Shown here piece by piece: positions 31,095 to 34,600 of a stretch of 64,000 nucleotides of DNA. The notes beneath the pieces are model-generated. The model saw nothing but the letters and a program-made list of their open reading frames with translations, searched no databases and was not told where the DNA came from. Position numbers and translations under genes: made by a program. How positions within the stretch are numbered: the stretch's first letter is position 1; each line of letters starts with the position of its first letter. The stretch is from the human T2T-CHM13v2.0 reference genome, Homo sapiens. The stretch is taken from assembly GCF_009914755.1 (NCBI RefSeq), contig NC_060945.1. The stretch is one strand, 5' to 3'.

Positions 31095-31690
31095 CGTTGT
31101 AATAGAATGGAATGAAAAAGATAAAAGGAGATTTATATGTTTTCCTAGCTAGATTAAAGAAGTGTCCATGAAACAGTACGATATAAAGAACTGATACCAG
31201 GATGTGAGCTCTTGGAGGACAGAGGGGTTTGTTAAGTTTTGTTTGCTGCTATAAACAGGCATTTATAGTGGCATCTTGCCAATAACGCCTATTGATGAGT
31301 ATCTGCTTGAGATTTGAATGCACAAATTAAATTGAAACGGAAAAAAAAAAGAATAACCACAAAAGATAAAAATACAAGTTTTAGTTGTAGCAGGAATTAA
31401 TGTGAAGGTCTCGTATATTTGAAAGAAGCCTTTCAAAAAATGTACAATGAGTCTGAGGAGACCTTAGGGGTGGTAGTCTTTGAGAGATATTATTAGCAAC
31501 AGGATAGGATGAGCCAAATAACACTACTATTTTCTCATCGTCCAACAGAGTCCCTTGCATGTGTTGCTTTGCAGGGTGCCTTGTATATGAGCCCTCATTT
31601 AGTATTTTCTAAAAGACAAAATAACTTTTTAAAGGACCGTGTCTAAGGTATTGTTTTTATTACTTGTTGCTACAAGATATAGCACATACT

Positions 31691-31797
31691 CGGAGCCATT
31701 GTGGCTCTGGCCGGTTGTGCTGGCCCTCGGGGAGGCGAGGGTACGAGTTCGAGGCCAACCTGGTCCACATTGATTGAAAAAAAAAATAAAAAAAAAA
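31691..31797 (+). ncRNA. snaR-family Pol III RNA retrocopy, CAS-like (catarrhine ancestor of snaR)
   Basis: CGGAGCCATTGTGGCTC 5' end and CGAGTTCGAGGCCAACCTGGTCCACAT match recalled snaR-A; B box 31745-31756; poly(A); 18-bp TSD aagatatagcacatactc at 31674-31691 and 31798-31815. Expression not shown. Confidence 0.88.
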
Positions 31798-31914
31798 AAG
31801 ATATAGCACATACTCATCACTGTTTCACAAGAACCAGGTAGCACATGCATATAGCATAATTCCAGAAAAAGTTTCATTTTCATGCTATTTACAAAAATTT
31901 TAGCAGAGTATAGG

Positions 31915-33292: not shown

Positions 33293-33624
33293 ATTCATTA
33301 ATTGTAAACTCTTAAGAATTTCCACTTCTGTAAGTAATTAAATGTAGATCAAACACTGTAAAAATGTCAACTAGGACAGAATTTAAAAGTCATCTACTTC
33401 TATCATCATTGCTTTATCTGAGAATGATTAAGCTGAGAGCCACGGAGACCAATATCATGCAGTTAGCTATGTAGAAGCTATATCAGGATAATGCTGGACT
33501 TCTAAATTTGGACCTGGGCCTTATTCACTATCCTAGTGGTTTTCAAAATGACTAGAGAATTTCTTGAGAATTTGGGATCTCCTAGTAGGGAGTTTATTAA
33601 AAACAAAATAAAAAGCATAGAGAC

Positions 33625-33931
33625 GCCCAGGAGCGGTGGCTCATGCCTATAATCCCAGCACTTTGGGAGGCTGAGGTTAAGAGTTTGAGGCCAGCCAGAC
33701 CAACATGGAGAAACCCTGTCTCTACTCAAAATACAACATTAGCCGGGCATGGTGGTACATGCCTGTAATCCTAGCTACTCAGGAGGCTGAGGCAGGAGAA
33801 TTGCTTGAACCCAGGAGGCAGAGGTTGTGGTGAGCCAAGATCGCACCATTGCACTCCTGCCTGGATGATGAGAGCAAAACTTCATCTCAAAAACAAAAAC
33901 AAAAAAAACAAAAAAACACACACACAAAAAC
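33625..33931 (+). mobile_element. AluSp-like with small left-arm deletion
   Basis: gaccaacatggagaaaccc; TSD aaaagcatagagac at 33611-33624 and 33932-33945. Confidence 0.93.
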
Positions 33932-34600
33932 AAAAGCATAGAGACTCTGGGTTCTCCTGTCTTAATTCAACCAGAGTTTCTCAATATTATTCTATTTTAG
34001 AAGTAAAGTTTATGACTTTATCCATTCTTCTTATTGGTATAGTTTACTATAGTTTTGAGTAGATAACATTTTTACCTAACTAAGCGACAGAAATTTATTG
34101 TCTCACAGGTCTGGAGGCTGGACATCCAACATCAAGGTGTAGGCAGGGGTGGTTCCTTCTCAGGACTATGAAGTTGAAGCCTTTTTCTGATCTTTTAATA
34201 GCAACAGCTTCAAACATTTTTTTTTCTAATTTCAAATTTATTTTAGATTCAGGGAGTATGTGCGTAGGTCTGTTACATGGATATATGGTGTGATACTGAT
34301 GTTTGGGGTACAAATGATCCTGTCACCCAGATAATGAGCATAGTACCCAATAGGCAGTTTTCAGTCCTTCCCTCCTCCCTTTCTCTCCCCTCTACTGCCC
34401 CCCAGTAGTTTCCAATGCCTATTGTTTCCATATTTATGCCCATGTGTACCCTATGTTTCTCTCTCTCTTATAAATAAGAACATATGGTATTTGATTTTCT
34501 ATTCCTGCTTTAACTTGCTTAGGATGACAGCATTCAACTGCATCCATTTTGCTGCAAAGGAAATAATTTTGTTCTTTGTAATGGCTTTGTAGTATTCCAT

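What the first reader, a model, noticed from the sequence alone, without database searches (positions are those of the whole stretch)
31674..31815. Intact retroposed snaR-ancestor (CAS-like) Pol III RNA gene copy
Seen: an 86-nt GC-rich body (31691-31776) keeping 6 CpGs in CpG-depleted DNA, a ~21-nt A tail, and a perfect 18-bp TSD. It has an A-box-like TGGCTCTGGCCGG and a B box GAGTTCGAGGCC. Stems are visible: GGAGCCA/TGGCTCT, GCCCTCG/CGAGGGT and GGCCGGTTG/CAACCTGGTC. Known: snaRs are NF90/ILF3-bound Pol III RNAs derived from the Alu left monomer via ASR and CAS, which spread by retrotransposition. Against recalled snaR-A this copy lacks both internal expansions (GCCCTCAC and GTTCCAGG), which points to CAS. 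Inference: a relatively young L1-mobilised copy that may still be transcribed; the first T4 is at 31877-31880, predicting an RNA of about 190 nt with a unique 3' extension. It may be missed or mislabelled FLAM by repeat annotation. The family is described; whether this locus is catalogued I cannot tell.
Basis: partly seen in the sequence, partly recalled or inferred. Interest (0 to 1): 0.8.

Follow-up and report, generated by a model that had tools for sequence, protein, structure and literature searches.

The report
Known snaR-21 retro-pseudogene on chromosome 21
This is a small retrotransposed copy of an early form of the primate snaR RNA gene, already published as snaR-21, and nothing here shows that it is active.

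Summary
An 85-86-nt GC-rich body (31691/2-31776) is followed by a 21-nt A10-T-A10 tail and flanked by a perfect 18-bp target-site duplication. Rfam matches it end to end to snaR-A (70.7 bits, E 1e-15, below the 98-bit cut-off), with two 8-nt gaps where snaR-A has its internal expansions.

The locus is already described. Parrott et al. 2011 (PMC3045588) list "snaR-21 (Hs21)" at 21q21, 25.03 Mb in hg18. [quoted passage not shown] It has one copy in human and one in Pan; transcription was not determined. It is the only chromosome 21 hit in two whole-genome searches.

"CAS-like" is right for length only. By substitutions the copy belongs to the snaR lineage:
- It carries the snaR state at 8 of 11 diagnostic columns.
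- It sits in a 100/98-supported clade with all 14 full snaR copies sampled.
- Its nearest relative is the chromosome 12 copy (81/85), most likely snaR-12.

Ordinary Alu left monomers are only 62-66% identical. The B box is intact, but there is no terminator before 31877, and activity is untested. Verdict: already known, low interest.

The parts
31674..31691 (+). Left copy of the target-site duplication (18 nt). Its first two A's could instead belong to the tail/TSD ambiguity, and its last C could be the first base of the inserted RNA.
   Evidence: D1, 100% identity, spacing 124
31692..31776 (+). Body of the retrocopy (85 nt; 86 with the C at 31691). It is a snaR-lineage sequence lacking expansions epsilon1 and epsilon2.
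   Evidence: Rfam snaR-A, 31690-31788, 70.7 bits, E 1e-15, model 1-115, two 8-nt gaps
31702..31714 (+). A-box-like stretch. It has a T at 31708, where 3 of 14 sampled snaR copies have A and most others have C.
   Evidence: the exact 13-mer occurs in 0 of 14 snaR copies. The T is shared with the chr12 copy. PMC3045588 places the putative CAS A box at +11-22.
31745..31757 (+). B-box stretch, intact.
   Evidence: identical to 10 of 14 sampled both-expansion snaR copies. PMC3045588 places the B box at +57-65.
31777..31797 (+). A-rich tail A10-T-A10. The single T at 31787 lies where the source genes start their oligo(T) terminator.
   Evidence: (source genes read A-run then T7; the three other snaR-clade retrocopies examined have 2-3 T at the same place)
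31798..31815 (+). Right copy of the target-site duplication.
31877..31880 (+). First T4 downstream. This is the earliest canonical Pol III stop if the copy were transcribed, giving an RNA of about 190 nt.
   Evidence: (fold of 31691-31880)

Best explanation
The element is the published snaR-21 (Hs21) locus. It is a processed retrocopy of a Pol III transcript from the snaR progenitor gene. That transcript already carried the snaR-type substitutions but predated the two 8-nt internal duplications (epsilon1, epsilon2).

Inferred origin: the RNA ended in its encoded A-run plus about one terminator U and then acquired an A tail. L1 machinery reverse-transcribed it into an AT-rich gene desert on 21q21, creating a 16-18-bp target-site duplication. 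According to the paper's copy table this happened before the human-chimpanzee split.

The insertion carried the intragenic A-box-like and B-box sequences. It left behind the oligo(T) terminator and the conserved flanks of real snaR genes. Most likely it is a neutral, silent or at best weakly transcribed pseudogene. Its good preservation reflects its youth, not selection.
For: Shown here:
- Perfect 18-bp duplication and A10-T-A10 tail.
- Full-length Rfam snaR-A match with two 8-nt gaps.
- The only chromosome 21 match in two genome-wide searches: one search scored 40 of 108 candidates, with a CAS-type query, scored 40 of 55.
- Identity over the 85 shared columns: 81/85 to the chr12 copy, which has epsilon1 only; 78/85 to chr7:26.18 Mb; mean 89.1% to 14 both-expansion snaR copies; 80.3% to 22 short-form CAS-like copies; 64.0% to 5 Alu left monomers, with 40 gap columns.
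- 8 of 11 snaR-versus-CAS diagnostic columns are in the snaR state.
- Maximum-likelihood tree of 44 rows and 85 columns with indel columns left out: the window sits in a 17-row clade with all 14 snaR copies, support 100/98, and has an end branch of 0.013.
- The flanks share nothing with the conserved snaR flanks, and no T-run follows the A-run.

From the literature (PMC3045588; passages, Table 1 and sections 5, 14 and 18 read):
- snaR-21 is at 21q21, 25.03 Mb (hg18).
- It 'lacks both internal expansions'.
- One copy in human and one in Pan.
Against: - Identity with Hs21 is not shown letter for letter. The paper's Supplementary Data S3/S4 (.doc and .pdf) could not be read, and no liftover was available. 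The match rests on band, approximate coordinate, uniqueness on chromosome 21 and the listed features.
- The hg18-to-this-assembly offset it implies (about -1.93 Mb) is plausible only against chromosome lengths that I recall.
- Silence is inferred, not shown. The B box is intact, and snaR-A is transcribed in vitro without upstream sequence (PMC2094060), so some transcription cannot be excluded.
- The tree does not resolve whether the copy branches before the both-expansion snaRs or among them; that node is an open polytomy.
Confidence: 0.9

Rival explanations
1. It is an autonomously transcribed Pol III unit, not a dead copy. TFIIIC would bind the intact B box, transcription would start near 31691 and read through the A tail and the right duplication copy to the T4 at 31877-31880. 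The result would be an RNA of about 190 nt with a CAS-like 5' domain and a unique 3' extension. This rival concerns activity only and is compatible with the locus being snaR-21.
For: - The B-box stretch is identical to 10 of 14 snaR copies.
- snaR-A was made in vitro from constructs with little or no upstream sequence (PMC2094060, passages).
- 5 of the 6 CpGs I infer for the source are retained.
- The first T4 is at 31877.
Against: - No gene is annotated here (hub note).
- The authors list transcription as 'nd' and call it an apparent pseudogene.
- The A-box-like stretch carries a T at 31708 that is seen in 0 of 14 snaR copies.
- The element lies in a 35% GC gene desert.
- By general knowledge, most retroposed Alu-type copies with intact boxes are silent.
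- CpG retention is what I expect for an insert of roughly 10 My, using recalled mutation rates, and needs no hypomethylation.
Confidence: 0.1
2. It is a retrocopy of a fully formed snaR that secondarily lost both 8-nt tandem duplications, not a pre-expansion intermediate.
For: In the tree, the window plus the chr12 copy sit in an unresolved polytomy together with both-expansion snaRs (chr2, chr3, chr19) rather than clearly outside them. Short tandem duplications can be lost by slippage (general knowledge).
Against: - It needs two independent precise deletions.
- The chr12 copy, its nearest relative (81/85; sister with support 81/89), has epsilon1 but not epsilon2. This gives the graded series none, then epsilon1, then epsilon1+epsilon2 that the authors also infer.
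Confidence: 0.07
3. It is an ordinary CAS element of catarrhine age.
For: Length about 85 nt, no epsilon1 or epsilon2, A/T-rich tail and target-site duplication. All of these are CAS features (PMC3045588).
Against: - Only 2 of 11 diagnostic columns are in the CAS state.
- Mean identity to 22 short-form copies is 80.3%, against 89.1% to snaRs.
- It falls inside the snaR clade with 100/98 support.
- The paper lists the chromosome 21 element as present in human and Pan only.
Confidence: 0.03
4. It is a free left Alu monomer (FLAM) or an Alu fragment.
For: It descends ultimately from the Alu left monomer, and the B-box region is shared.
Against: - 62-66% identity to 5 Alu left monomers, with 40 gap columns.
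- The best blastn match to any Alu in the window is 45 bp at 78%.
- blastn at E <= 1e-3 found no match to the four fetched flanking Alus.
- No Rfam family other than snaR-A matched this stretch at E <= 10.
Confidence: 0.01

Closest known systems
snaR-21 (Hs21), Parrott et al. 2011, Nucleic Acids Res 39:1485 (PMC3045588)
   Same: Chromosome band 21q21. Lacks both internal expansions. Flanked by short direct repeats. Good similarity to snaRs. The only such element found on chromosome 21.
   Different: Nothing found to differ. Letter-for-letter identity and the exact coordinate could not be checked because the supplements were unreadable and no liftover was available.
snaR-12 (Hs12), taken to be the copy at chr12:20.99 Mb of this assembly
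   Same: Nearest relative: 81 of 85 shared positions. It shares the T in the A-box-like stretch and the 3' end, and is also a retrocopy with an A/T tail.
   Different: The chr12 copy has the 8-nt epsilon1 expansion and a C-to-G change inside the B box. The window copy has neither.
Hs7i, taken to be the copy at chr7:26.18 Mb
   Same: Short form without expansions. A snaR-clade member: 78/85 to the window and 9 of 11 diagnostic columns in the snaR state. Also a retrocopy.
   Different: It keeps CAS states in the apical stem, and it branches as sister to the other 16 members of that clade.
CAS (catarrhine ancestor of snaR) elements
   Same: About 85 nt. Both deletions relative to the Alu left monomer. 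No expansions. Retroposed, with target-site duplications. Predicted Y-shaped fold with a 5' hairpin.
   Different: Substitution pattern: 73-86% identity to 22 short-form copies, 2 of 11 diagnostic columns in the CAS state, and placement outside the CAS grade in the tree.
snaR-A (Rfam RF02556)
   Same: Full-length alignment at E 1e-15, the same B box, and the same 5' end.
   Different: - Scores 70.7 bits against a 98-bit cut-off.
- 16 nt of the apical stem are missing.
- It has no oligo(T) terminator and no conserved flanks.
- Its predicted fold is Y-shaped at -36.5 kcal/mol, whereas a sampled snaR-A-type copy forms one long hairpin at -56.5.

Membership tests
snaR-21 (Hs21) locus of PMC3045588 | Located at 21q21, 25.03 Mb in hg18 | tested here: inconclusive
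   The window is on chr21 at 23.10 Mb of T2T-CHM13 (hub note). The implied offset of -1.93 Mb is close to the chromosome-length difference I recall, but no liftover could be run.
snaR-21 (Hs21) locus of PMC3045588 | Lacks both internal expansions while resembling snaRs | tested here: met
   Two 8-nt gaps in the Rfam alignment. 8 of 11 diagnostic columns in the snaR state. snaR clade support 100/98.
snaR-21 (Hs21) locus of PMC3045588 | Flanked by short direct repeats | tested here: met
   18-bp perfect direct repeat.
snaR-21 (Hs21) locus of PMC3045588 | Single copy on human chromosome 21 | tested here: met
   It is the only C21 match (40 of 108 candidates scored) and (40 of 55 scored). Unscored candidates remain unexamined.
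snaR-21 (Hs21) locus of PMC3045588 | Sequence identical to the published Hs21 entry (Supplementary Data S3/S4) | not testable with these tools
   The supplement files are .doc and .pdf and could not be read.
snaR genes (Rfam RF02556 snaR-A; Parrott and Mathews) | Score at or above Rfam's gathering cut-off (98 bits) | tested here: not met
   70.7 bits. In the same genome, 52 of the 54 scored loci exceed the cut-off, all on chr19.
snaR genes (Rfam RF02556 snaR-A; Parrott and Mathews) | Internal expansions epsilon1 and epsilon2 | tested here: not met
snaR genes (Rfam RF02556 snaR-A; Parrott and Mathews) | 3' oligo(A) followed by an oligo(T) terminator, and conserved flanks of about 150 bp upstream and 100 bp downstream | tested here: not met
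   The alignment with flanks shows no T-run after the A-run and unrelated flanks. The first T4 is at 31877.
snaR genes (Rfam RF02556 snaR-A; Parrott and Mathews) | Pol III transcription and NF90 binding | not testable with these tools
   No expression, ChIP or CLIP data were available. The paper lists 'nd'.
CAS elements | About 85 nt, with deletions delta1 and delta2 relative to the Alu left monomer and no expansions | tested here: met
   The alignment with 5 Alu left monomers shows the internal gap and the 3' truncation. The body is 85 nt.
CAS elements | CAS-type substitution states; placement with CAS copies | tested here: not met
   2 of 11 diagnostic columns. The tree places it in the snaR clade.
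CAS elements | Orthologues in Old World monkeys or Asian apes | not testable with these tools
   No primate genomes are held. The paper's Table 1 gives human 1 and Pan 1 and leaves the gorilla cell empty.
FLAM / Alu left monomer | Full-length alignment to the left monomer without the delta1 and delta2 gaps | tested here: not met
   62-66% identity with 40 gap columns against 5 genomic Alu left monomers. The FLAM_C consensus itself was not available.

The most novel reading that the evidence does not exclude
The copy is a live Pol III unit. Its intact B box would recruit TFIIIC in some tissue such as testis, brain or transformed cells, and it would produce an RNA of about 190 nt. That RNA would carry an almost unmutated pre-expansion 'proto-snaR' domain (end branch 0.013) with a unique 3' extension. 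It would be a living sample of the CAS-to-snaR transition state, whose NF90 binding and ribosome association could be compared directly with snaR-A.
Probability: 0.08. Interest if true: 0.35.

Novelty: already known. Interest (0 to 1): 0.1.

Why it matters
It matters little beyond bookkeeping. The locus is a published evolutionary intermediate used to order the steps from CAS to snaR: substitutions first, then epsilon1, then epsilon2. This re-analysis on a complete human assembly agrees with that order and shows the copy is nearly unchanged from its inferred source. It carries no NCBI Gene ID in the paper's table and no RefSeq annotation in this window. An annotation pipeline could therefore miss it or label it as an Alu fragment. 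If it were transcribed it would be a minor addition to the Pol III transcriptome.

Tried and rejected
- The supplement of PMC3045588, which holds the Hs21 sequence and flanks, is in .doc and .pdf form and could not be read. Exact identity is therefore unverified.
- No primate genomes, ChIP-seq or RNA-seq are reachable.
- Thermodynamic support for structure is weak: z = -1.28. I do not use the fold as evidence of function.
- My first attempt to force a snaR-A-like long hairpin gave a meaningless -6.8 kcal/mol because of a faulty constraint. Redone, forbidding the 5' hairpin gives -33.1 against -36.1 kcal/mol.
- The Rfam family search of the whole genome scored only 54 candidates, all but one on chr19. 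It did not reach the window locus, so it says nothing about other sub-threshold copies.
- The other Rfam hits near the element (CRISPR-DR64, SmY, mir-7918, U4atac; E 0.43-9.6) are chance-level and were ignored.
- Literature searches found no paper other than PMC3045588 for 'snaR-21', and only the two Parrott and Mathews papers for 'Catarrhine ancestor of snaR'. A 2025 Pol III atlas preprint (PMC12424700, passages only) does not mention chr21 or CAS elements.

Full report
**1. What is in the sequence**

Window 31674-31815 holds a compact retroposon-like unit.
- An 18-nt perfect direct repeat lies at 31674-31691 and 31798-31815.
- It brackets a GC-rich body (31691/2-31776) and a 21-nt tail reading A10-T-A10 (31777-31797).
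- The body is 64% GC and holds 6 CpG. CpG observed/expected is 0.71, against 0.19 for the 64-kb window and 0.34 for 1 kb of flanks.
- One of the six CpGs is formed by the last base of the repeat and the first G of the insert.
- The first T4 downstream is at 31877-31880.
- From the window's composition, an 18-mer repeat inside 300 bp is expected about 3e-6 times by chance (my arithmetic).

**2. What it resembles**

Among all 4227 Rfam families, the only real hit is snaR-A (RF02556). It covers 31690-31788 at 70.7 bits and E 1e-15, spanning model positions 1-115, and falls below the 98-bit gathering score. The alignment shows two 8-nt gaps flanking the central loop. These are the two internal expansions that define snaR genes.

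**3. The literature already names it**

Parrott et al. 2011 (PMC3045588) describe the lineage FLAM-C, ASR, CAS, snaR. I read the abstract, passages, Table 1 and sections 5, 14 and 18. [quoted passage not shown]

Table 1 lists snaR-21 as follows:
- position 21q21, 25.03 Mb (hg18)
- one copy in human and one in Pan
- no Gene ID
- transcription "nd"

The window lies on chromosome 21 at 23.10 Mb of T2T-CHM13.

Two searches of the window's own assembly each found exactly one chromosome 21 locus, this one.
- One search used the element itself and scored 40 of 108 candidates.
- One search used a CAS-type copy as query and scored 40 of 55 candidates.

The other table entries have counterparts among the hits: chr12:20.99 Mb (snaR-12), chr2:77.96 Mb (snaR-H), chr3:193.69 Mb (snaR-I) and the chr19 arrays. 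I could not read the supplement with the Hs21 sequence or run a liftover. Identity is therefore very probable, not proven.

**4. CAS or snaR?**

I assembled the comparison set as follows.
- I fetched 35 of the 40 matches, leaving out 5 further chr19 tandem copies with the same scores.
- I added 4 high-scoring chr19 copies.
- I added 5 Alu left monomers: 4 next to fetched elements and 1 from the window at 33.6 kb.
- The 15 extra CAS-type loci that appeared only were not fetched.

I grouped rows by architecture only: 14 with both expansions ("snaR") and 22 short forms ("CAS-like", some probably ASR-like). The results over the 85 shared columns are below.

| Compared with | Identity to the window copy |
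|---|---|
| chr12 copy (taken as snaR-12) | 81/85 |
| chr2:77.96 Mb copy (taken as snaR-H) | 79/85 |
| chr7:26.18 Mb copy (probably Hs7i) | 78/85 |
| 14 snaR copies | mean 89.1% (85.9-92.9) |
| 22 short forms | mean 80.3% (72.9-85.9) |
| 5 Alu left monomers | mean 64.0% (62.4-65.9), with 40 gap columns |

At the 11 columns where the two group consensuses differ, the window has the snaR state at 8, the CAS state at 2 and its own state at 1.

A maximum-likelihood tree on those 85 columns, with the indel columns left out, gives these results:
- The window sits in a 17-row clade with all 14 snaRs, the chr12 copy and the chr7 copy (ultrafast bootstrap/SH-aLRT 100/98).
- It is sister to the chr12 copy (81/89).
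- Its end branch is 0.013, about one substitution.

The node joining it to the both-expansion snaRs is an open polytomy. The tree therefore allows the published order of events but does not prove it.

Against Alus, blastn finds only a 45-bp, 78% match in the whole window. It finds nothing at E <= 1e-3 in the four fetched flanking Alus. The label "CAS-like" is true for architecture only.

**5. How it arose (inferred)**

Real snaR genes read A-run, then T7, then conserved flank. The window copy reads A10, one T, A10, then the duplicated target. The three other snaR-clade retrocopies in my sample (chr12, chr7:26.18, chr19:49.66) have 2-3 T at the same place, followed by a second A-run.

The simplest reading has two steps. 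The template was a Pol III transcript terminated in the T-run and retaining 1-3 U. It then received an A tail before L1-type target-primed reverse transcription. The duplication starts with AAGA after a C. From general knowledge, that is compatible with the loose pyrimidine/purine preference of the L1 endonuclease.

The alignment indicates six internal CpGs in the source, and five are kept. The sixth is now TG at 31717-31718, where all snaR copies have CG. With recalled CpG mutation rates, about half a CpG loss is expected in roughly 10 My. The CpG retention and the perfect duplication therefore fit an insertion in the African-ape ancestor and need no selection.

**6. Could it work?**

Points for possible activity:
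- The B-box stretch (31745-31757) is identical to 10 of 14 sampled snaR copies.
- snaR-A was transcribed by Pol III in vitro from constructs with little or no upstream sequence (PMC2094060, passages).

Points against, or showing it would differ from snaR-A:
- The A-box-like stretch has a T at 31708 that is found in 0 of 14 sampled snaR copies.
- The copy lost its terminator, so any transcript would run about 190 nt to 31880.
- The body is predicted to fold into a 5' hairpin plus a branched stem (-36.5 kcal/mol), like the CAS copies. The single long hairpin of a snaR-A-type copy reaches -56.5.
- Forbidding the 5' hairpin costs 3 kcal/mol.
- The fold is no better than shuffles (z = -1.28).

No expression or occupancy data could be consulted. 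I put about 10% on measurable autonomous transcription.

**7. Verdict**

The locus is the published snaR-21 retro-pseudogene. It is more precisely a snaR-lineage pre-expansion intermediate than a CAS. It is already known and of low interest.

Noticed in passing
window 31787; L002 (chr12:20.99 Mb), L003 (chr7:26.18 Mb), L010 (chr19:49.66 Mb): All 4 snaR-clade retrocopies examined have 1-3 T between a first A-run of 10-15 and a second A-run. This is exactly where the source genes begin their T7 terminator. It suggests the templates were terminated Pol III transcripts that were A-tailed after transcription.
   Followed up: partly
own genome, chr19 50.74-50.95 Mb and 53.09-53.20 Mb: The Rfam snaR-A search of this complete assembly scored 54 loci, and 52 of them, all on chr19, exceed the 98-bit cut-off. 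Table 1 of PMC3045588 lists 26 human copies on chr19 in hg18, 14 of them snaR-A. The tandem arrays appear much larger in this assembly.
   Followed up: no
window 33626-33930: This is an Alu flanked by a 14-bp direct repeat (33612-33625 and 33931-33944). Its left monomer lacks about 19 nt at the same place as the delta1 deletion that defines ASR/CAS/snaR. That would be an independent recurrence of the deletion, perhaps by slippage between the short GAGG repeats there.
   Followed up: no
L032 (chr10:34.47 Mb): A short-form element carries about 16 extra nt before its A tail. It may be an ASR-type copy that keeps the segment removed by delta2. It clusters with two other divergent copies (97/89).
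   Followed up: no
L002 (chr12:20.99 Mb): The copy taken to be snaR-12 has a C-to-G change inside its B box, unlike the window copy.
   Followed up: no
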